IMG/VR virus record: IMGVR_UViG_3300045988_020221
Coordinates: 1-44,422 of that record
Strand: one strand, 5' to 3'
Length of the DNA stretch: 44,422 nt
Source: a virus
Below, in pieces: positions 1 through 44,422 of this stretch; the stretch's first letter is position 1; the number at the start of each line of letters is the position of its first letter. The notes beneath the pieces were generated by a model that was given only the letters and a program-made list of their open reading frames with translations, made no database searches and was not told the DNA's origin. The position numbers and the translations under genes are program-made.

Positions 1-55
1 TTTTTGGAGCTGGTGACAGGAGTTGAACCTGCAACCCACTGATTACAAATCAGTT
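1..55 (-). repeat. attL core: displaced 3' fragment of tRNA-Thr(UGU)
   Basis: Bases 1-55 are identical to 44368-44422. The reverse complement reads anticodon arm ACTGA-TTTGTAA-TCAGT, T arm and CCA. AT-rich phage DNA with no D arm follows after base 55. Confidence 0.9.
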
Positions 56-21268: not shown

Positions 21269-21345
21269 TGGTGCCGCCTGTGGGGCTTGAACCCACGGCC
21301 CCCGGATTACAAATCCGGCGCTCTGCCAACCTGAGCTAAAACGGC
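21269..21345 (-). tRNA. phage-encoded tRNA-Thr (anticodon UGU), CCA encoded
   Basis: GCCGTTT/AGGCGGC acceptor, GCTC/GAGC D stem, CCGGA-TTTGTAA-TCCGG anticodon arm, GTGGG-TTCAAGC-CCCAC T arm, ACCA end. 77 nt. Confidence 0.9.
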
Positions 21346-28330: not shown

Positions 28331-28466
28331 TGCCGCCAGCCGGATTTGAACCGGCACCCACGGAATGGATGTGCGCAGTGGTTGGCTGTGCAGTGATGTT
28401 TCCGTGGTATCACCAATGTTGTCCCGCCTTAAATGGGCGGCGCTCTGCCAGTTGAGCTATGACGGC
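28331..28466 (-). tRNA. tRNA-Lys(UUU)-like gene with a 68-nt insertion in the variable region
   Basis: GCCGTCA/TGGCGGC acceptor, GCTC-AACTGGCA-GAGC D arm, CCGCC-CATTTAA-GGCGG anticodon arm, GCCGG-TTCAAAT-CCGGC T arm. 28356-28423 lies between the anticodon and T arms. Position 33 is A. Confidence 0.6.
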
Positions 28467-28571
28467 ATATAATAAGAGGCTTTGCTTGTCGGGTGCAAGG
28501 CCTCTGCATCCAGAACTTTCGCGGCTGGATGCCCCGCTATTGCACTCCCCGCTCTCGTCAGATCATGCAAG

Positions 28572-28644
28572 CACTCCCGGCAGGACTCGAACCTGCAACA
28601 TGCGGTTTTGGAGACCGCTGCTCTACCACTTGAGCTACCGGAGC
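28572..28644 (-). tRNA. tRNA-Trp (anticodon CCA)
   Basis: GCGGT-CTCCAAA-ACCGC anticodon arm, GCAGG-TTCGAGT-CCTGC T arm, GCTC/GAGC D stem. Acceptor stem has one G-G mismatch. No encoded CCA. Confidence 0.8.
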
Positions 28645-32290: not shown

Positions 32291-32621
32291 TTCGTCCTCC
32301 GTTCTGGTTTTCCTGCCCAAGAAGCTTTCTTTCTGCTCTGGACTTGAGCATCCGGGTGCGGGCAGCAAGGCAGCGCTTTACCAGAATCTGCTCGCCCTGG
32401 GCCTTTTCGATGGCCTTTTTCCACGCCGGGAGAAGCTGGCTCTGCCAGCTGCACTCCGAAATCACCTCGTGGAATGTCTTATAGGCCATATCATCCGGCA
32501 CATCCTTGAGCGATGAGTTCGCCCAGATCTCCGCGATACTTGCGCGGTTCTCTGCGGTCTGAGGCCGTCCAAAATAGGCCTCAGCGTCCGCAAGAAGCTT
32601 TGTCATCATCTCCACTGTCAC
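32283..32621 (-). CDS. hypothetical early protein
   Basis: ORF track. Operon context. Confidence 0.6.
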   Translation of the reverse strand: MTVEMMTKLLADAEAYFGRPQTAENRASIAEIWANSSLKDVPDDMAYKTFHEVISECSWQSQLLPAWKKAIEKAQGEQILVKRCLAARTRMLKSRAERKLLGQENQNGGRNA

Positions 32622-33352
32622 GCTTTCACCCCCTTGAAAATATTCGCGTATGCTTCTACGGTGCTTTCTGTGGCTTGTTTCCCACGAGGCTGTTCTTGTC
32701 GGCGCTGCTCATTCGCTGCCACGTCCCCCGGGGTGCGTATCCCGTCCCGCTGCCAGCCAGACAGGATGCCGTTGATGTAGTTCCACGAGCGCTTTCCGGC
32801 CTCTGCAGCCTTGTCAATCGCCAGCAAAATCATCTCCGTGCTGTACTCCTGCCGCCATTTTTGCAGTTTTTCCAGTGCCGAACGCGGGAAGTCGCCGATA
32901 GCCCGCTGGTAATGCTGGACGATTTTTGATAACTCCATATCAACGGCGGCGGTGTTATCGCGCTTTACAACATCTACATCTACATCTCCATTTACATCTA
33001 CATCTCCATTTACATCTACAGTTATTTTTGTTATGTCGTTATTAACATTGTTATCGTTTGTTATTTTTGTTATGTCGTCAGGCTTTCCCCAGCGCTTTGC
33101 CATGCCGCGTTTTCCGGCGTTGCTGCGTTTCTTGCGTGTTTCATCCCATTTTTCAGACGCCCGTTTTACGTCGCTGCACATAAATTTCCAGTTGCCACGC
33201 ATCCCACGGTCTGAAAATTCGGGTTCTTCTCCGGTTTTGGCATACCGTGCAAGAGCTCGCATCAACTGCCCAACCTCTGCGTCGGAGTATTCTTCCAGCG
33301 CGTCGAACCAGCTCAGATACGCCACAAATGACTTTTTATCGTCCTGTGCCAC
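32618..33352 (-). CDS. replisome organizer with a C-terminal DnaD-type domain
   Basis: C-terminus EMILLAIDKAAEAGKRSWNYINGILSGWQRDGI. Internal AT-rich repeat region. Confidence 0.75.
   Translation of the reverse strand: MAQDDKKSFVAYLSWFDALEEYSDAEVGQLMRALARYAKTGEEPEFSDRGMRGNWKFMCSDVKRASEKWDETRKKRSNAGKRGMAKRWGKPDDITKITNDNNVNNDITKITVDVNGDVDVNGDVDVDVVKRDNTAAVDMELSKIVQHYQRAIGDFPRSALEKLQKWRQEYSTEMILLAIDKAAEAGKRSWNYINGILSGWQRDGIRTPGDVAANEQRRQEQPRGKQATESTVEAYANIFKGVKA
32971..33078. repeat. iteron cluster (putative phage replication origin) inside the organizer gene
   Basis: 18-bp CATCTCCATTTACATCTA in tandem twice (32983-33018). 19-bp GTTATTTTTGTTATGTCGT at 33021-33039 and 33060-33078. Confidence 0.65.
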
Positions 33353-37150: not shown

Positions 37151-37439
37151 TGTTCCGCGCCTCCTTTGCGGTGCTCTCAGCTGCCTGTGCCGCTGAGTTC
37201 GCGCACCACTTGCCCGCCGGGGCGGTCTTGCGGGGGTCTTCCTGGGCTGCTGCGGCTTCGTCCTCTTCCAGCAGCTTGTTCAAATCGGCCAAGAACTGGC
37301 CGCACATATCCGCCTGCGCAGGCTCTGCAGGCCGGATGATAAAGCTTGTGTAGATGGCCGCTTTCGTTTTGTAATAGTCTTCGAGATACTGATACTTGCC
37401 AATCAGCTGGCAAACCTTATCGCGCATCGTGGTTTTCAT
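37143..37439 (-). CDS. hypothetical protein
   Basis: AAGGAGG RBS before the ATG at 37439. Confidence 0.6.
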   Translation of the reverse strand: MKTTMRDKVCQLIGKYQYLEDYYKTKAAIYTSFIIRPAEPAQADMCGQFLADLNKLLEEDEAAAAQEDPRKTAPAGKWCANSAAQAAESTAKEARNNG

Positions 37440-37455
37440 AAAGGTCCTCCTTGCA

Positions 37456-37698
37456 TCAATGACGCATAACAATGTTGGACGAATGAACCAGATAGGTCAC
37501 ACCGTCAATCACAACCTGAAGCTGGTCGCCTTCATAGTCGCGCCAGCTTTCGACATTGCCCTCGATAATCGTTCCATCAGGCATTTTCAGCTGTGCCCAG
37601 CTGTATTCATAGGTCAGATCAATAACCTGCTTATTGCATCCGGCCATCAGCAAAGCGCTTGCCAATACGGACGCTACACCAACAATAATTTTTTTCAT
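37456..37698 (-). CDS. small lipoprotein
   Basis: AAAGGAG RBS. Signal peptide with lipobox MKKIIVGVASVLASALLMAGC. Confidence 0.75.
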   Translation of the reverse strand: MKKIIVGVASVLASALLMAGCNKQVIDLTYEYSWAQLKMPDGTIIEGNVESWRDYEGDQLQVVIDGVTYLVHSSNIVMRH

Positions 37699-37719
37699 GC
37701 TCGTTTCTCCTTTTAATAA

Positions 37720-38254
37720 AATGTCTTCTCTTTGCTGTGCTGTCGCAGTTCTCTGCGTTTCCTAGCCTCACTCTTCTCTGCCTTTGCTAAACATCGCTTC
37801 TCAAAGCCATTGCGCTACTTGACTAAGCTGGTCCTTGCCAAGCCGTTCCATTGCAAATCACGGCATTTCTTCTCTCTTCCATGCCAATGCATCCGAAGCA
37901 AAACCTTGCCGCAGCGAATCGTTACGGTGTACCGCTTTTCCTTCGCAAATCACATCAGCGCTTTTCTCTGCCATTCCTTCGCATTTCTTCGCTTCGTCAT
38001 TCCATTGCCAGACTAATCAACGCCTTACCTTTGCTTCTCGGTGCCGTGCCATGCCTTGCTCAGCCTCTCCATGCTCTGCCTTCGCTTCGCAAAACGTCGC
38101 TCTGCCCCGCCCTGCCCTGCCTTCGCCTTGCCTGTCTGTGCTTCTCCGTGCCGCTGCGATGCTCTGTGCATTGCCACTGCACAGCAGTTCACCTCATAGC
38201 CTTTGCCAAGCGACTCCTCCGCGAATCAGGGCCGTCAATGCCATGCCCTTGCTC
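37720..38254 (-). other. ORF-free, purine-skewed (on the transcribed strand) tract with degenerate short-word recurrences
   Basis: No minus-strand ORF of 60 aa or more. My hand count gives about 178 purines in 530 nt on the + strand. All three + frames are open only as shadow ORFs. Confidence 0.7.
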
Positions 38255-38887
38255 TCAGGCCTTCACCTCATAAGCGGTGTAGGTAAAGCGTCCCTTTCCG
38301 CTGTTGCGCCACTGGCCGATGCCGCGCAGAATGCCATAATCCAGCCACTCACGCACAACCTTTTCGTGGCTGTCGTCAAGGAGGATTACGTCAAACTCGC
38401 AGGTGCTGCCCGTCGGGACTTCCTCACTGTTGACCAGACTCACGCGCTCGCCCTGTGCGGTCTGTGCGCGGAGTGGACGCTGGCACTCGGTAATCTCACC
38501 GTTCGTGTGAATGGGAATCATGCGGGGCTGAATAAAGATCAGGCCGTCAATGACCTTCTTGTAAGCAGCCAGCTTGCCGCTTTCGTTCACGGCCTTCTTC
38601 TTGCCCGTCTCGGTCTTGCCGCCGATGCGGGAAAGCATACCGCAAGCATCCTTAAACATGCCTTTGATTTGGTAATCGTAAAAAATCGGATTGCCGTCCG
38701 GGTCACGCGGGAAAACGGTCATGCCCTTGTCAGCTACCGCATCAGGGCCAAGAGCCGCCACTTCATCCTCGATGGTTGCGGCATCCGGCGACTTGCTGGC
38801 GATAAGCTCGCGGGCCACATTGGGGTTTGCGGGCCATGTGCCCAGCACCGGCTCAATAAACGTAGCTTTCACATGCAGTTTTTTCAT
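38255..38887 (-). CDS. early protein with a RAMP-like motif pattern
   Basis: GGAGG RBS before the ATG at 38887. ...YQIKGMFKDA... and C-terminal GIGQWRNSGKGRF (GhGxxxxxGhG pattern). Confidence 0.7.
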   Translation of the reverse strand: MKKLHVKATFIEPVLGTWPANPNVARELIASKSPDAATIEDEVAALGPDAVADKGMTVFPRDPDGNPIFYDYQIKGMFKDACGMLSRIGGKTETGKKKAVNESGKLAAYKKVIDGLIFIQPRMIPIHTNGEITECQRPLRAQTAQGERVSLVNSEEVPTGSTCEFDVILLDDSHEKVVREWLDYGILRGIGQWRNSGKGRFTYTAYEVKA

Positions 38888-38912
38888 AATAGTAACCTCC
38901 AAAATATATTGC

Positions 38913-39728
38913 TTACGCCACGCCGTCCTGGTTGTGCTGCCGGGCGGCAAGCTCCATCTGCTCCACGCTCTGCCTGCGCTCCACGCTGGGCAGCATTCCC
39001 ACGGCCTTGAGTTGCTCATAGATAAAGCGCTGTCCGGCTTCCGTCCATACGGTGGTGTTCTTGGTGTCCCACTCGCCGGTGCTCTTGTGCTGGAACGGCG
39101 TGGATTTGCGGTTTTTGGTGTAGCCCTTGCCGCAATACTTGGCGTATAGCACCCACTGGCCGTCGCTGGTCTTGTACTGGATCTTCAGGCCGTGGAGGAC
39201 GCTGTTGAGCTTCTCGGCACTCAGGCCGTAATCCTTGGCAAGGCTGGTAGTGGTGCGGCAGTTCTTGCCCACGCACACCGCCCGGGCATACTCTGCATCC
39301 GGCTTCAGGTCGTTGTTCTCGGCCAGCAGGCTGCGGTTCACGCTTTGCAGCTCTTTCACTTTGCGGTCAGCAATGAGCACTGCACGGCGCATTACCGCTT
39401 CCGGGCTGTTCCACTGGGCTTCTACCGTCAAGAAATACTGCCGGGCCTGCTTGCCGCGCTCGTTGCGCTGTATCATGCACAGCTCCTTCGCCATCGGGAT
39501 GGTAAGCTGGTGGTCGTCCACCGTGCGCGTGACCTTGCGCCCGCCCTCATTTTGAACTCGGTCAATTTTGACCGGGTTGAAATCCTCGCCCTCGGTAAAG
39601 CCGTACTCACACATACGAGGGAACCAATGCCGGTAATCTGCGCCAACCTGCAAAAACTCGTGCAGTTCCCGGCCGCTCACGGTGGGGCGCTCCGGGTTGT
39701 CGTAGTTGATGGGTATAAGGTTGTTCAT
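38913..39728 (-). CDS. antirepressor, AntA-type N-terminus plus KilAC domain
   Basis: VSGRELHEFLQVGADYRHWFPRMCEYGFTEGEDF. C-terminus TTSLAKDYGLSAEKLNSVLHGLKIQYK. Confidence 0.8.
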   Translation of the reverse strand: MNNLIPINYDNPERPTVSGRELHEFLQVGADYRHWFPRMCEYGFTEGEDFNPVKIDRVQNEGGRKVTRTVDDHQLTIPMAKELCMIQRNERGKQARQYFLTVEAQWNSPEAVMRRAVLIADRKVKELQSVNRSLLAENNDLKPDAEYARAVCVGKNCRTTTSLAKDYGLSAEKLNSVLHGLKIQYKTSDGQWVLYAKYCGKGYTKNRKSTPFQHKSTGEWDTKNTTVWTEAGQRFIYEQLKAVGMLPSVERRQSVEQMELAARQHNQDGVA

Positions 39729-39987: not shown

Positions 39988-40091
39988 GTAGTTGCAAGGT
40001 ACAAAGTGAATAAAATCTAGCGTCTGCCCGATATAATATTGTCAGGGTCCTTGGTTTTGTTTGCCCTGTGCTTAGTATTATACTAGCCAAG

Positions 40092-40153
40092 TGGCTATTT
40101 TGCAATAGCCAATATGCAATTTAGTGAACATTTGGCTATTTTCACAGAATAGC
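40092..40153. promoter_or_regulatory. operator-like inverted repeats in the switch region
   Basis: TGGCTATT-TTGC-AATAGCCA (40092-40111) and GCTATT-N7-AATAGC (40135-40153). Confidence 0.6.
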
Positions 40154-41235: not shown

Positions 41236-41310
41236 TCATGGCAAATGCCTGTCCGATCTGCGGCGGCAAGCTGGTTGGCTGCCTATTTTTGTATATGTGA
41301 GGTGCGTTTT

Positions 41311-41880
41311 ATGAAATGTCCAAAATGCGGAGCTGAAATTGAGAACGTAAAGTTCTGCCCTGAATGTGGAGCACCTGTTGCTTCGGGTTCCGTGACAGCA
41401 GCTATCGAATCAGACGAAAAGCCTGAAACGAAGAAAAAAAGTCACGGATGCGGATGCGCGGTCGCTGTTAGTGTTGCACTGATCATGTTCGTTCTTATGC
41501 TTACTCCTTCTTCCAGCACGACAAGTTCAACGTACGGAACAAAGAGCAGCACGTCCGTAAAATCGTCAATTTCTGCCGATGATAGCCTTACAATGGGGCA
41601 GAGAAACGCTTTGCGGGCTGCTAAAAACTACCTGAGTGCTGGTATGGGATTCTCTTACAGCGGCCTTGAAAGTCAGCTTGAGTTTGAAGGATATTCCACG
41701 GAAGATGCTACTTATGCCGTAGATCATTGTGGCGCCGACTGGAACGAACAGGCTGCAATAAGAGCAAAAAATTATATCAATTCCATGTCTTTCTCTCGCT
41801 CCGGTCTGATTGAACAGCTGGAGTTTGAGGGATTTAGCCAAGGCCAAGCGGAATACGGAGCCACTGCTGTGGGATATTGA
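41311..41880 (+). CDS. Ltp-family superinfection-exclusion-type protein (zinc ribbon, TM, two Ltp repeats)
   Basis: MKCPKCGAEIENVKFCPECG. TM VAVSVALIMFVLML. Two copies of QRNALRAAKNYL...FSYSGLESQLEFEGYS..DATYAV. Confidence 0.75.
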   Translation: MKCPKCGAEIENVKFCPECGAPVASGSVTAAIESDEKPETKKKSHGCGCAVAVSVALIMFVLMLTPSSSTTSSTYGTKSSTSVKSSISADDSLTMGQRNALRAAKNYLSAGMGFSYSGLESQLEFEGYSTEDATYAVDHCGADWNEQAAIRAKNYINSMSFSRSGLIEQLEFEGFSQGQAEYGATAVGY

Positions 41881-42536: not shown

Positions 42537-43130
42537 ATGAGCTACTTTACTGCGGAAAAGCTTGGTGTCGCATTGGCGCGGGCCAGAGTCGCGGCAGGCT
42601 TGAGCCAAGTCGAGATGGCCCGCCGTATCAACAAGGGAAAGGCTACGGTCCAGAGCTGGGAGTGCGGGGCGTCCAGCCCACCAGCCGACAAGATAATGGA
42701 CTGGTTCGAGGCTTGCGGGACTTCTCCGCTCCCCGCCATGCAAGAAATGCTGCACCCGGAGCTTTACAAAGAACCCATACAGCGCAAATCAGACGAAGAG
42801 CTGGATGAGGTACTTACAGAATACTTTCGCACAGCGCCGCGAATTGTAAAAGAGATGGTGCTGTTTATTCTTTTGGGGCGACATGGCAGCTATCCGCCGG
42901 CGGTGTTTGCTGAGGTGTGTGCAAATCTGCATACTCCCTTGCAAAACAAAGTGTCTGTCTGCGGCCAGATACTGGACAACTACGGGTTCGCCGTGGCTAC
43001 AGGGACGGACCCGATTCCGTGGGAAGTCCAGCCGCCAGTGAATCTGCTGAGGTCGGCGTATCAGGCAGGCAAAGAGGCCGCGAAGAGCGGCGAGGCCGAC
43101 TATACCGCAAAGCGAGGTGAAGAGCCTTGA
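42537..43130 (+). CDS. XRE HTH protein with a C-terminal domain, co-oriented with the integrase
   Basis: AGLSQVEMARRINKGKATVQSWECG. Confidence 0.75.
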   Translation: MSYFTAEKLGVALARARVAAGLSQVEMARRINKGKATVQSWECGASSPPADKIMDWFEACGTSPLPAMQEMLHPELYKEPIQRKSDEELDEVLTEYFRTAPRIVKEMVLFILLGRHGSYPPAVFAEVCANLHTPLQNKVSVCGQILDNYGFAVATGTDPIPWEVQPPVNLLRSAYQAGKEAAKSGEADYTAKRGEEP

Positions 43131-44260
43131 AGTGCATCCGCGCCTGCTGCCGTCGGGAAATACCGGATGATGCATCTTTTTGCCCCTACTGCGGCAAGAA
43201 GCAGCCCGAATCCGCCCCGCAGCAAAGAAAAAAGCGCCGCCGCCCAAAGGGCAGCGGCAGTGTATATAAGTTGAGCGGGACGAGGTCAAAGCCGTATGTG
43301 GCCCTGACAGCCAAGCGAGACGTTCTGGGGACGTTTGCGACGCCGGGCGAAGCAGTACAAGCACTGGACGCTTACAACGCCCAGAATACCCCCGCAGCGC
43401 GTCTGAAATGCACTTTTGCGGATGCCTACGCCCAATGGAAAGCGCAGCCCAAATTTGACAAGCTCAGCACTGACATGAAAAAGGGTTATGAGCTGGCCTA
43501 TGCAAAGGCTGCGCCGCTGTATGACCGACAGCTCCGGGACTTAAAAGCCGCAGACTATCAACAGGTGATTGACCAGATGGTGGAAAAGGGCCTCTCCCGC
43601 AGCTCCTGCGAAAAGCAGCGCACACTTTTCAGCCAGATCTGCGAGTGGGCAATGGCTCAGGACATCATAAACAAAAACTATGCCATGCTCTTGCAGCTCC
43701 CAGCGGCTACAGGCAAGGCAGAGCGCACCTTGACCGCTCAAGAGATAGAGCAGATAAGCAGCCGACAAGACGACCCGAAGCTTGGGCAGACAGCCCAAAT
43801 CGCAATGGTGCTGCTCTACACCGGCATGCGTATCGATGAGCTGCTCTCCATGCGCTGCGACGATGTGCACCTGAAAGAGCGGTACATGCAGGGCGGTGAG
43901 AAGACCGAGGCTGGCAAAAACCGCATCATCCCTATTTTGGACCCCATTTACAAAATCATTGTCTTTTGGATGCTTGACAGCGGCTGTGAGTGGCTGATAC
44001 CGTCCAAAGCCGGTACAAAGCTGGACAAGCGCAACGTGGCTACAAAGTTTCGGGACTTGATGCAGGAATGCCACATAGAGGGGGTGCATCCGCATACGCT
44101 GCGCCACACGGCCAGCAGCAAGATGGTGGAGTGCGGGCTGGAAAAGACCGCCGTGCAGGCCATCTTGGGTCACAAAAATTTTTCCACCACGGCCAACAAG
44201 TACGTCTCCCACAATGACCCGGGATATCTGTTGCGGGAAATGCAAAAGATGAAGTATTGA
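43127..44260 (+). CDS. int: tyrosine integrase with an N-terminal zinc ribbon
   Basis: TTG start overlapping the upstream TGA. CCRREIPDDASFCPYCG. C-terminus HTLRHTASS...LGHKNFSTTANKYVSH. Confidence 0.9.
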   Translation: MKCIRACCRREIPDDASFCPYCGKKQPESAPQQRKKRRRPKGSGSVYKLSGTRSKPYVALTAKRDVLGTFATPGEAVQALDAYNAQNTPAARLKCTFADAYAQWKAQPKFDKLSTDMKKGYELAYAKAAPLYDRQLRDLKAADYQQVIDQMVEKGLSRSSCEKQRTLFSQICEWAMAQDIINKNYAMLLQLPAATGKAERTLTAQEIEQISSRQDDPKLGQTAQIAMVLLYTGMRIDELLSMRCDDVHLKERYMQGGEKTEAGKNRIIPILDPIYKIIVFWMLDSGCEWLIPSKAGTKLDKRNVATKFRDLMQECHIEGVHPHTLRHTASSKMVECGLEKTAVQAILGHKNFSTTANKYVSHNDPGYLLREMQKMKY

Positions 44261-44330: not shown

Positions 44331-44372
44331 ACGCACGGACGATTTGTTTTTATCGTTCGTGCGTTTATTTTT
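44331..44372 (+). terminator. rho-independent terminator after int
   Basis: ACGCACGGACGAT/ATCGTTCGTGCGT stem followed by TTATTTTT. Confidence 0.7.
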
Positions 44373-44422
44373 GGAGCTGGTGACAGGAGTTGAACCTGCA
44401 ACCCACTGATTACAAATCAGTT
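44368..44422 (-). tRNA. attR core = 3' part of host tRNA-Thr(UGU), truncated by the window edge
   Basis: Reverse complement reads anticodon arm ACTGA-TTTGTAA-TCAGT, T arm GCAGG-TTCAACT-CCTGT, acceptor CACCAGC and TCCA. The 5' half lies beyond 44422. Confidence 0.8.

What the first reader, a model, noticed from the sequence alone, without database searches (positions are those of the whole stretch)
37720..38254. A 0.53-kb ORF-free, purine-skewed tract sits in an otherwise tightly packed early operon
Every other gene junction in this operon is a few nt or an overlap, but here about 535 nt carry no minus-strand ORF of 60 aa or more. I translated all three minus frames and each is broken repeatedly. 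One frame has a G-first-codon look but carries in-frame TGA stops at four separated positions before a terminal TGA-GGC-TAG. By my hand count the + strand has about 178 purines in 530 nt, so the transcript would be about two-thirds G+A and could not fold extensively on itself. Short words recur on the minus strand without a fixed period: GCGAAGG four times, GGCAGAG four times, TTTG(C/A)GAAG three times, GTGATTTGC(G/A)A(A/T)GG twice about 92 nt apart, and GAAGAAATGC twice. This is neither a CRISPR array nor a simple tandem repeat. Candidate explanations are a long unstructured ncRNA or sponge, an array of protein-binding words, or a decayed gene.
Basis: seen in the sequence. Interest (0 to 1): 0.72.

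Follow-up and report, generated by a model that had tools for sequence, protein, structure and literature searches.

The report
Prophage VIPR guide-RNA pentamer array
The "empty" purine-rich tract is most likely an array of pentamer-repeat guide RNAs (vrRNAs) for the Cas7-like Vipr protein encoded just upstream, making it a Faecalibacterium-prophage member of the VIPR RNA-guided DNA-silencing systems first described in 2026 preprints.

Summary
GC-to-GC spacings are 5, 10, 15 and 20, or those plus 1. Spacings of 4, 7, 8 and 12 are almost absent, both here and in 40 relatives.

In homologous blocks the G-C anchor is about 10 times more conserved than the three bases between anchors. The tract always follows the same 210-aa gene (38255-38887), whatever gene comes next. 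This holds even in relatives whose array shares no detectable sequence.

That protein models confidently (pLDDT 92) as a Cas7-type RAMP with a thumb hairpin and a glycine-rich loop. It aligns end to end with the experimentally characterised Vipr protein of phage SUSP1.

This matches VIPR systems: Vipr plus vrRNAs of GGY/NN pentamers (bioRxiv 10.64898/2026.04.26.720920). Here the repeat is the relaxed "YNNNG" form, and no conserved accessory gene is present.

I found no natural targets, and mature RNA boundaries need RNA-seq. Decayed-gene, TGA-recoding and replication-origin readings are rejected or disfavoured. Verdict: new member of a just-described kind.

The parts
38255..38887 (-). vipr gene: 210-aa Cas7-like RAMP protein. 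The true start is the ATG at 38887, after a GGAGG ribosome-binding site. The 254-aa ORF listed from 39019 overlaps the Ant gene and is not the real start.
   Evidence: start codon. AF2 pLDDT 91.9, thumb hairpin 133-157, G-loop 189-200; the top 50 PDB matches are all Cas7/Csm3/Cmr4/Cas7-11/Csf2, best E 2e-8; hhalign to SUSP1 Vipr, probability 82.5%, E 9.8e-6, 175 columns; a 67%-identical BFVD protein is annotated as a RAMP superfamily protein.
37699..38254 (-). vrRNA array: 556-nt non-coding, purine-rich, degenerate pentamer repeat with unit (x)G-C-N-N, i.e. the YNNNG form.
   Evidence: Present directly after vipr in 80 of 80 IMG/VR loci and 5 of 5 genome loci.
38216..38254 (-). Conserved 39-nt leader of the array (GAGCAAGGGCATGGCATTGACGGCCCTGATTCGCGGAGG).
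   Evidence: 95-100% identical in most relatives.
38172..38201 (-). Invariant element E1 (GGCTATGAGGTGAACTGCTGTGCAGTGGCA). It can pair with E2. It is a possible handle, tail or processing signal.
   Evidence: Found once per array at varying offsets in about 70 loci. Local hairpin prediction.
38132..38151 (-). Invariant element E2 (GCAC[T/G]GAGAAGCACAGACAG). In relatives 0-8 variable pentamers are inserted between E1 and E2.
38081..38120 (-). In-phase run of 8 pentamers (GCAGG GCAGG GCGGG GCAGA GCGAC GTTTT GCGAA GCGAA); candidate guide segment.
38030..38079 (-). In-phase run of 10 pentamers; candidate guide segment. A one-base phase shift (the hexamer GCGAAG) separates it from the previous run.
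37879..37959 (-). Conserved, less periodic block E3 with small predicted hairpins. It is 90-98% identical across most relatives. Role unknown: a shared guide or a structural module.
37742..37843 (-). Three further in-phase runs of 7, 5 and 8 pentamers, each separated by a one-base shift.
37707..37740 (-). Conserved 3' end of the array (GCACAGCAAAGAGAAGACATTTTATTAAAAGGAG). It includes the ribosome-binding site used by whatever gene follows.
   Evidence: The same block precedes different downstream genes in L012, L024 and L062.
40077..40105 (-). Candidate early promoter (TTGCAA-17-TATAAT, 10/12). It would drive the HTH gene, Ant, vipr, the array and the downstream genes.
   Evidence: No minus-strand promoter-like or terminator-like site lies inside the tract.
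38913..39728 (-). Context: AntA/KilAC antirepressor gene immediately upstream of vipr. It is not conserved next to vipr in relatives.
37456..37698 (-). Context: 80-aa lipoprotein-like gene immediately downstream of the array. This position is variable in relatives.

Best explanation
The tract is the guide-RNA (vrRNA) array of a VIPR system, and the gene immediately upstream (38255-38887) is its Vipr protein.

**Shown here**
- A Cas7-like RAMP gene is invariably followed by a purine-rich pentamer array.
- The G-Y anchor of that array is conserved, while the bases between anchors are hypervariable.

**Inferred from the SUSP1 and P. fulva work in the two preprints**
- The array is co-transcribed with the early operon and processed into short RNAs.
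- Vipr protomers polymerise along each RNA, one protomer per pentamer. They sequester the G-Y anchor through the G-loop Trp/Arg and the thumb.
- The intervening bases are presented to pair with double-stranded DNA in a gapped register (two paired, one skipped).
- This silences transcription of a competing phage or prophage.

**Features specific to this clade**
- The first G of GGY is relaxed (G in only 42% of units). This coincides with replacement of the two SUSP1 residues that read that base (H17 to T/S, D177 to Q).
- Runs of 5-10 in-phase units are separated by GCAANG hexamers, each of which shifts the phase by one base.
- No accessory (vap) gene is conserved beside vipr.
For: **Periodicity**
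- GC spacings of 5, 10, 15 and 20 nt dominate. 27 spacings of 5-6 nt are seen against 11.1 +/- 3.0 in shuffles.
- Over 40 unique relatives, spacing 5 occurs 846 times and spacing 10 occurs 379 times, while spacing 4 occurs 8 times and spacing 12 occurs 6 times.
- Neighbouring coding sequences on the same strand show no such pattern.

**Anchor conserved, other positions variable**
- In ungapped homologous blocks the mismatch rate is 0.5% at G and 1.5% at C. It is 12.1%, 9.1% and 14.4% at the next three positions.

**Linkage to the protein**
- The array follows vipr in all 80 IMG/VR loci, although both the upstream and the downstream neighbours vary.
- L079 and L080 (85% protein identity) and MAGs at 55-59% identity carry arrays with no sequence similarity but the same period. 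These are L084 (Oscillospiraceae) and L085 and L086 (Bacteroidales).
- The anchor is GC in the Faecalibacterium (L082, L083) and Oscillospiraceae (L084) loci, and GT in the Bacteroidales loci.

**Protein fold**
- The AF2 model has pLDDT 91.9, with an RRM core, a 25-residue beta-hairpin thumb and a G-loop between helix 2 and strand 4.
- All top 50 Foldseek PDB matches are Cas7-type backbone subunits, best E 2e-8.

**Homology to a tested Vipr**
- I located the SUSP1 locus in KT454805. A 195-aa gene is flanked by GGTNN arrays.
- hhalign of the family profile against it gives probability 82.5%, E 9.8e-6, end to end. GVGDWRPRFGRF aligns with GIGQWRNSGKGRF.
- W193 and R194 are kept in 57 of 58 family members. 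Q192 is kept in 55 of 58, and position 17 is T or S.
- In SUSP1, W178 and R179 hold G2 and Y3, while H17 and D177 read G1 (10.64898/2026.04.26.720927).

**Published definition**
- VIPR is defined as Vipr plus GGY/NN pentamer vrRNAs. Systems are mostly prophage-encoded, and alternative YNNNG repeats and staggered arrays are described (10.64898/2026.04.26.720920).

**Context**
- The window is a complete tRNA-integrated prophage.
- The tract contains no internal minus-strand terminator.
Against: - The paper's strict operational criterion (at least 4 consecutive YNNGG units) is not met. Only the relaxed YNNNG form is, with 8 consecutive units.
- No repeated invariant 3' tail marks out individual vrRNAs of about 100 nt. 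In-phase runs are 5-10 units rather than 9-16.
- No conserved vap gene was found.
- No natural target was found. In a 1.3-Mb local database the xNN rule did no better overall than unit-shuffled controls.
- Three exact gapped scans of IMG/VR with 18-20 specified bases gave 0 hits. A 16-base scan gave 24 hits, all in low-GC contigs and consistent with chance.
- Similarity to SUSP1 Vipr is moderate (26% identity).
- There are no expression or binding data for this locus.
- The VIPR mechanism rests on two 2026 preprints and was tested only for type II systems in E. coli.
Confidence: 0.88

Rival explanations
1. Decayed or recoded gene: the tract is a pseudogene, or an ORF read with TGA as a sense codon.
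For: One frame has only TGA stops before its end. With TGA read as sense, most relatives show a frame open across almost the whole tract. One relative (L035) has a 137-codon frame with no stop at all.
Against: - TGA is about 4 times commoner than TAG or TAA in all three frames (420 vs 115 vs 111). The cause is TA depletion in a T-poor sequence, so the open frames are compositional.
- The frame with the fewest stops differs between relatives. Tract lengths mod 3 are 12/13/15.
- Flanking genes, including vipr in every relative, end at TGA.
- One stop-free frame among about 120 is the number expected by chance.
- The periodicity is 5 nt, not 3.
Confidence: 0.02
2. DNA-level element: a replication origin or R-loop primer zone, or iterons and bent DNA bound by a phage protein.
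For: - Strong GC and purine skew on the non-template strand.
- A/T tracts phased at 10-11 bp in the 3' half (segmentation).
- The tract sits in the early operon.
- Transcribed non-coding origins are known in other phages, such as lactococcal phage c2 (my own knowledge).
Against: - The feature travels with the RAMP-fold gene, not with the replication module. That module (DUF6291 + DnaB_2, 32618-33352) lies about 4.5 kb away.
- Only two bases per pentamer are conserved while the rest turn over rapidly, and array length ranges from 369 to 605 nt. That is atypical for iterons.
- Strand asymmetry and co-orientation with vipr are kept in all relatives, which points to an RNA-level function.
- The partner protein's structural matches in the PDB are RNA-binding Cas7 subunits.
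Confidence: 0.04
3. A structural or sponge RNA bound by Vipr or a host protein, with no guide function. Examples would be a titrating decoy or a spacer that resists Rho termination.
For: - The transcript would be G-rich and C-poor, and so a poor Rho substrate.
- No targets were found.
- Large blocks (E1, E2, E3) are conserved rather than hypervariable.
Against: - The variable positions diverge about 10 times faster than the anchors.
- 155 distinct in-phase runs of 6 or more units exist among 81 arrays (the window plus 80 loci). Such diversification is expected for programmable guides and unnecessary for a decoy.
- Homologous systems have been shown to guide DNA binding.
Confidence: 0.06

Closest known systems
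VIPR systems (Vipr + vrRNA). The type II examples are Escherichia phage SUSP1 and a Pseudomonas fulva prophage; bioRxiv 10.64898/2026.04.26.720920 and 10.64898/2026.04.26.720927.
   Same: - A small (about 20 kDa) stand-alone RAMP protein with thumb and G-loop.
- It is phage- or prophage-encoded and flanked by a long non-coding tract of pentamer repeats.
- The repeats have a conserved G-Y anchor and hypervariable bases between anchors.
- The array lies on the same strand as vipr.
- The G-loop Trp-Arg pair is conserved.
   Different: - The anchor is xGC (YNNNG form) rather than GGT or GGC.
- The residues that read G1 are replaced (T/S17 and Q192 instead of H17 and D177).
- There is no recognisable repeated 3' tail or pseudoknot.
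- Runs of 5-10 units are separated by one-base phase shifts, instead of discrete vrRNAs of 9-16 units.
- No conserved vap gene is present.
- The host is Faecalibacterium (Oscillospiraceae).
- The system is embedded in the early operon, after a Cro-like HTH gene and an antirepressor.
Class 1 CRISPR-Cas backbone (Cas7, Csm3, Cmr4 or Csf2 filaments on crRNA).
   Same: - The protein fold. All top PDB matches are Cas7-type subunits.
- One protomer binds per short RNA segment.
- A thumb interrupts base pairing periodically.
   Different: - The period is 5 nt rather than 6.
- There is no repeat-spacer array and there are no other cas genes.
- No Cas7 HMM is hit.
- The guide information is non-contiguous.
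TRAP (trp RNA-binding attenuation protein) sites: 9-11 (G/U)AG triplets spaced 2-3 nt apart.
   Same: A short conserved motif recurs every 5-6 nt on an otherwise unstructured RNA, so that an oligomeric protein can bind it.
   Different: This is an analogy only. The protein fold differs, the motif differs, TRAP has no guide function, and the array here is about 10 times longer.

Membership tests
VIPR system | Vipr protein with the RAMP fold: RRM core, thumb beta-hairpin, and a glycine-rich loop before the last strand. | tested here: met
   AF2 pLDDT 91.9, pTM 0.86. Hairpin at 133-157, G-loop at 189-200. Foldseek PDB top 50 are all Cas7-type RAMPs, best E 2e-8, TM about 0.55.
VIPR system | Sequence homology to an experimentally characterised Vipr (SUSP1). 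| tested here: met
   hhalign of the 58-sequence family profile against SUSP1 Vipr (L081:28474-29061): probability 82.5%, E 9.8e-6, 175 aligned columns, 26% identity. Moderate, not overwhelming.
VIPR system | G-loop Trp and Arg that hold G2 and Y3 of the repeat (SUSP1 W178 and R179). | tested here: met
   W193 and R194 align to W178 and R179. Each is kept in 57 of 58 family members.
VIPR system | Residues that read the first G of GGY (SUSP1 H17 and D177). | tested here: not met
   The aligned residues are T/S17 and Q192. This matches the weak first G in this clade's repeat, which is G in 42% of pentamers.
VIPR system | At least 4 tandem YNNGG units in an intergenic region flanking vipr (the paper's operational screen). 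| tested here: not met
   No run of 4 strict YNNGG units on either strand.
VIPR system | Alternative pentamer consensus accepted by the paper (YNNNG, NNNGG or NNNNG) in the flanking intergenic region. | tested here: met
   8 consecutive YNNNG units at 38080-38119 on the minus strand, the only such run in the window. The 5-nt periodicity is far above shuffles.
VIPR system | The anchor motif is conserved and the intervening bases are hypervariable across related loci. | tested here: met
   Mismatch rates are 0.5% at G and 1.5% at C, against 12.1%, 9.1% and 14.4% at the other three positions. 155 distinct in-phase runs of 6 or more units among 81 arrays (the window plus 80 loci).
VIPR system | Discrete vrRNAs of about 100 nt: 9-16 repeats followed by an invariant structured 3' tail. 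| tested here: inconclusive
   In-phase runs are 5-10 units. No tail recurs within an array. Invariant modules E1, E2 and E3 exist. Mature ends need small-RNA sequencing. The architecture may correspond to the paper's tail-less "staggered" arrays.
VIPR system | A vap accessory gene next to vipr. | tested here: not met
   Upstream neighbours fall into at least 5 unrelated groups, and downstream genes also vary. The paper also reports stand-alone vipr genes.
VIPR system | Encoded by a virus or provirus, without a CRISPR array or cas genes. | tested here: met
   The window is a prophage bounded by 55-bp att repeats, with integrase, terminase and portal genes. There are 428 IMG/VR relatives. No repeat-spacer array was found in or around the tract. 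The whole window was not scanned for cas genes.
VIPR system | Natural DNA targets that match the NN bases under the 1-nt skip rule. | tested here: inconclusive
   Local 1.3-Mb database: two related guides, differing in one unit, make the same perfect 14/14 match, against 0 of 198 controls. The overall distributions are equal. IMG/VR exact scans gave 0, 0 and 0 hits. A 16-base scan gave 24 chance-like hits in low-GC contigs.
VIPR system | Vipr-vrRNA ribonucleoprotein that binds dsDNA and represses transcription. | not testable with these tools
   Needs pull-down, EMSA or reporter assays.
CRISPR-Cas (class 1) | A repeat-spacer array (24-40-nt repeats) and a cas gene set; Cas7 family HMM membership. 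| tested here: not met
   No such repeats. No NCBIfam, Pfam, PADLOC or PHROG hit for the protein.
Known structured RNA families, including hammerhead ribozymes that intersperse some VIPR arrays | A covariance-model match. | tested here: not met
   Rfam at gathering threshold, and at E up to 10 on 37400-38500, gave nothing relevant.
Protein-coding gene (intact, decayed or TGA-recoded) | A reading frame conserved across relatives, with frame-preserving indels. | tested here: not met

The most novel reading that the evidence does not exclude
This very large gut-phage clade may use a variant VIPR code. Only two bases per pentamer (G-Y) would be fixed by the protein and three would be free. Short guides would be packed head to tail and delimited by GCAANG hexamers, each of which shifts the phase by one base, with no 3' tail. 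The matched protein changes (H17 to T/S, D177 to Q) would be the structural basis. If so, the pairing rule, guide length or processing differs from the 1-nt skip rule established for type II systems. Its placement in the early lytic operon would mean it is deployed on induction against co-resident Faecalibacterium prophages.
Probability: 0.3. Interest if true: 0.65.

Novelty: new member of a known kind. Interest (0 to 1): 0.5.

Why it matters
VIPR is a newly reported class of RNA-guided DNA recognition, proposed to be ancestral to CRISPR. This locus adds three things.

- **Abundance in the human gut.** The class is abundant in prophages of Faecalibacterium, a keystone human-gut genus, and its relatives. 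I found at least 7,966 homologous proteins, 1,683 clusters at 50% identity and 428 IMG/VR loci.
- **A natural protein-RNA co-variation.** The relaxed first G of the repeat goes with replaced G1-reading residues. This could be used to dissect or re-engineer repeat recognition.
- **Annotation.** Purine-rich "empty" intergenic tracts downstream of small unannotated phage genes should be screened for 5-nt periodicity before being called junk, pseudogenes or origins.

Tried and rejected
- **TGA-recoded ORF or suppressor reading.** Rejected because TGA is spread over all frames through TA depletion. The phage tRNA-Trp has a normal CCA anticodon.
- **Decayed gene.** No conserved frame.
- **Known RNA family.** Rfam found nothing.
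- **Simple tandem repeat.** TRF reports only 2-4-copy fragments. The repeat finder gives only weak 60-79% families.
- **CsrA-type GGA sponge.** By my hand estimate from base composition (not a tool result), GGA is not enriched (about 12 seen, about 21 expected).
- **Rho-utilisation, origin or bent-DNA ideas.** Considered and kept only as a low-probability rival.
- **Protein family searches for the upstream protein.** Pfam, PHROGs, NCBIfam, PADLOC and PDB sequence search all gave no hit. Only structure comparison and profile-profile comparison worked.
- **First structure model.** Built from 19 close homologues, it was poor (pLDDT 62) and was replaced by a 58-sequence model.
- **Target searches.**
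  - I tested five skip rules plus NNNx and NNNxx on a local 1.3-Mb database, against unit-shuffled controls. No rule stood out.
  - Four gapped exact scans of IMG/VR gave zero or chance-level hits.
  - A contiguous NNN pseudo-target BLAST against GenBank phages gave chance hits only.
- **Repeated tail.** A k-mer search for a tail recurring within arrays found none.
- **Run lengths.** The distribution of run lengths between phase shifts has no single sharp mode.

Full report
**1. The observation**

The non-coding stretch runs from the TGA stop of the upstream minus-strand gene (38255-38257) to the ATG of an 80-aa lipoprotein-like gene (37698). That is 37699-38254, 556 nt. No minus-strand ORF inside it exceeds 55 aa.

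The sense strand is 66.5% purine, the maximum for any 530-nt window; the window mean is 0.535 with sd 0.04. Tandem Repeats Finder and Rfam report nothing of substance.

**2.

Cutting the sense strand before every GC shows spacings of 5 (18x), 10 (15x), 6 (9x), 11 (5x), 15 and 20 nt.

- 27 spacings are 5 or 6 nt, against 11.1 +/- 3.0 (maximum 20) in 1000 dinucleotide-preserving shuffles.
- GC autocorrelation peaks at 5, 10, 15 and 20 nt, each with a shoulder one base longer.
- Neighbouring coding sequences on the same strand show no such pattern.

The unit is G-C-N-N-N.

- The base before GC is G in 42% of pentamers.
- Hexamers are almost always GC-A-A-N-G.
- "10-mers" are a GC unit followed by a degenerate G-A/T unit.

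In-phase runs of 5-10 units are separated by single-base phase shifts.

**3. Not a gene**

With TGA read as sense, most relatives have a frame open across the whole tract. This is compositional. TGA outnumbers TAG and TAA about 4 to 1 in all three frames (420, 115, 111), because TA is depleted. The frame with the fewest stops changes between relatives, and tract lengths mod 3 are 12/13/15. The flanking genes terminate at TGA. The decayed-gene and recoding readings are therefore rejected.

**4. Relatives**

The upstream protein has 428 confirmed relatives in IMG/VR, at least 7,966 homologous proteins in the 5.8-billion set, and 1,683 clusters at 50% identity.

- In all 80 loci fetched, a purine-rich tract (61-67% purine, 369-605 nt) starts right after its stop codon. 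These arrays are a mosaic of conserved blocks and indels.
- The gene downstream of the tract varies: a lipoprotein, Ant-like proteins and others. So does the gene upstream of the protein, which falls into at least 5 unrelated groups. The tract is thus linked to this one gene.
- L079 and L080 (85% protein identity) have arrays with no BLAST similarity but the same period.
- Genome-collection hits name the host as Faecalibacterium (81% identity).
- More distant homologues (55-59% identity) occur in Oscillospiraceae, Cryptobacteroides and Muribaculaceae MAGs. They also carry pentamer arrays, and those in the Bacteroidales (Cryptobacteroides, Muribaculaceae) are anchored on GT instead of GC.
- In ungapped homologous blocks the anchor G and C mismatch at 0.5% and 1.5%. 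The three positions between anchors mismatch at 12.1%, 9.1% and 14.4%.

**5. The protein**

- **Start.** The real start is the ATG at 38887 after GGAGG, giving 210 aa.
- **Family searches.** Pfam, PHROGs, NCBIfam, PADLOC and PDB sequence search give nothing.
- **Model.** With a 58-sequence alignment, AlphaFold2 gives pLDDT 91.9 and pTM 0.86. The model has an RRM-like core, a helical insertion, a long beta-hairpin (133-157) and a glycine-rich loop (189-200, GIGQWRNSGKGRF) before the last strand.
- **PDB comparison.** All top 50 Foldseek matches are Cas7-type backbone subunits: type VII Cas7, Csm3, Cmr4, Cas7-11 and Csf2. The best E is 2e-8.
- **Viral structures.** In BFVD a 67%-identical viral protein is already labelled "Cas system-associated RAMP superfamily protein".

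**6. Identification**

A literature search on pentanucleotide repeats in prophages returned bioRxiv 10.64898/2026.04.26.720920. It describes VIPR systems:

- a small ancestral RAMP protein (Vipr);
- vrRNAs made of 9-16 YNNGG pentamers, with GGY conserved and NN hypervariable, plus a 3' tail;
- mostly prophage- or phage-encoded, in seven types;
- alternative YNNNG, NNNGG and NNNNG repeats;
- staggered, ribozyme-interspersed or single-guide arrays;
- optional vap genes.

The companion structure paper (10.64898/2026.04.26.720927) shows how the complex is built:

- One Vipr protomer binds per repeat.
- G1 is read by H17 and D177, G2 by R138 and W178, and Y3 by R179.
- The NN bases pair with DNA, skipping every third target base.

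I located the SUSP1 locus in KT454805. A 195-aa gene and a 146-aa gene are flanked by GGTNN arrays. The profile of the window's family aligns end to end with SUSP1 Vipr: probability 82.5%, E 9.8e-6, with G-loop on G-loop.

W193 and R194 (the equivalents of W178 and R179) are near-invariant in the family. The G1-reading residues are replaced by T/S17 and Q192. This fits the weak first G of this clade's repeat. That link is an inference, not a test.

**7. Mechanism proposed**

- The array has no internal promoter-like or terminator-like site on the minus strand. It lies downstream of a strong promoter-like site at 40077-40105. It is therefore probably co-transcribed with the early operon: HTH gene, Ant, vipr, array.
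- By homology, Vipr would polymerise on the pentamers. It would hide the G-C anchors and expose the variable bases for gapped pairing with dsDNA of a competing phage, blocking its transcription.
- The gene-array linkage, the periodicity, the conservation pattern, the fold and the homology are shown here. Processing, binding, targeting and repression are inferred.

**8. What does not fit or remains open**

- The strict YNNGG x4 screen is not met. Only YNNNG is, with 8 consecutive units.
- No tail recurs within an array. Instead there are invariant modules:
  - a 39-nt leader;
  - E1 and E2, which can pair and which bracket 0-8 variable pentamers in relatives;
  - an 81-nt conserved block, E3;
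  - a conserved 3' end.
- No vap gene is conserved.
- Target searches were inconclusive:
  - In a 1.3-Mb local database no skip rule beat shuffled controls overall.
  - One guide shared by 8 loci does match 14/14 in the divergent regulatory intergenic region of L079/L080.
  - Exact gapped IMG/VR scans gave nothing, or chance-level hits in low-GC contigs.
  - A contiguous three-base rule found only chance matches.

**9. Rivals**

- An origin, R-loop or bent-DNA element is disfavoured. The tract travels with the RAMP gene rather than with the replication module (DnaB_2 at 32618-33352). Only two bases per five are conserved.
- A non-guide sponge is disfavoured by the rapid diversification of the variable positions: 155 distinct in-phase runs of 6 or more units among 81 arrays, the window plus 80 loci.

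**10. Verdict**

The finding is real and its structure is far from chance. It is best explained as the vrRNA array of a VIPR system, a kind described in 2026 preprints. It is therefore a new member of that kind, with clade-specific features, and not a new kind. Interest is moderate. The class is new and important, and this clade is very abundant in gut phages, but the principle has already been reported.

Noticed in passing
window 1-55 and 44368-44422; integrase 43127-44260 (+): The first and last 55 bases are identical and form the 3' part of a tRNA gene. The window is therefore a complete 44.4-kb prophage from attL to attR, integrated in a tRNA gene, with a tyrosine integrase next to attR.
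   Followed up: partly
window 28331-28466 (-): A tRNA-like gene with an insertion of about 65 nt after the anticodon stem. It scores 48 bits with Rfam tRNA but ARAGORN does not call it. The anticodon loop reads CAUUUAA. It could be an intron-containing or unusual tRNA.
   Followed up: no
window 21269-21345 (-) and 28571-28644 (-): The phage carries tRNA-Thr(UGU) and tRNA-Trp(CCA) genes.
   Followed up: no
window 38262-38272 and 38188-38198 (-): The Shine-Dalgarno-like 11-mer TATGAGGTGAA occurs at the very end of the vipr coding sequence and again inside the invariant array element E1. It may be a shared processing or binding signal, or a relic of duplication.
   Followed up: partly
L079:2637-2657 (+), also L080: A 7-unit guide is shared by L001, L012, L013 and four other loci, with a one-unit variant in L004. 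It matches 14/14 NN positions under the xNN rule. The match lies in the divergent intergenic (lysis-lysogeny switch-like) region of a different VIPR-carrying phage. Alone this is not statistically significant.
   Followed up: partly
L085 and L086 (Bacteroidales MAGs), L084 (Oscillospiraceae MAG), downstream of position about 3570: Vipr homologues at 55-59% identity carry pentamer arrays of 500 nt or more. The anchor is GT in the Bacteroidales and GC in the Oscillospiraceae. L086 also has pentamers upstream of vipr.
   Followed up: partly
array 3' end, window about 37712-37723; relatives: Most relatives carry a 12-nt tandem duplication (CATTTTATTAAA x2) just before the downstream ribosome-binding site. 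The window has a single copy.
   Followed up: no
window 41245-41880 (+): An Ltp-type surface lipoprotein (PF07553, a superinfection-exclusion family) with a zinc ribbon lies in the lysogeny module. It may be a second inter-phage defence function in the same prophage.
   Followed up: no
window 37835-39010 (+) and 37851-38273 (+): Long plus-strand ORFs (391 and 140 aa) run antisense to vipr and the array. They arise because the pyrimidine-rich strand has few stop codons. Variable tract lengths in relatives would break them.
   Followed up: partly
relatives L004, L030, L009 and others, between E1 and E2: Many relatives insert an unusually C-rich segment (GCGACCTACCGCATCGC, with small complementary arms) between E1 and E2. 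The window lacks it. It could be a structured tail-like module.
   Followed up: no
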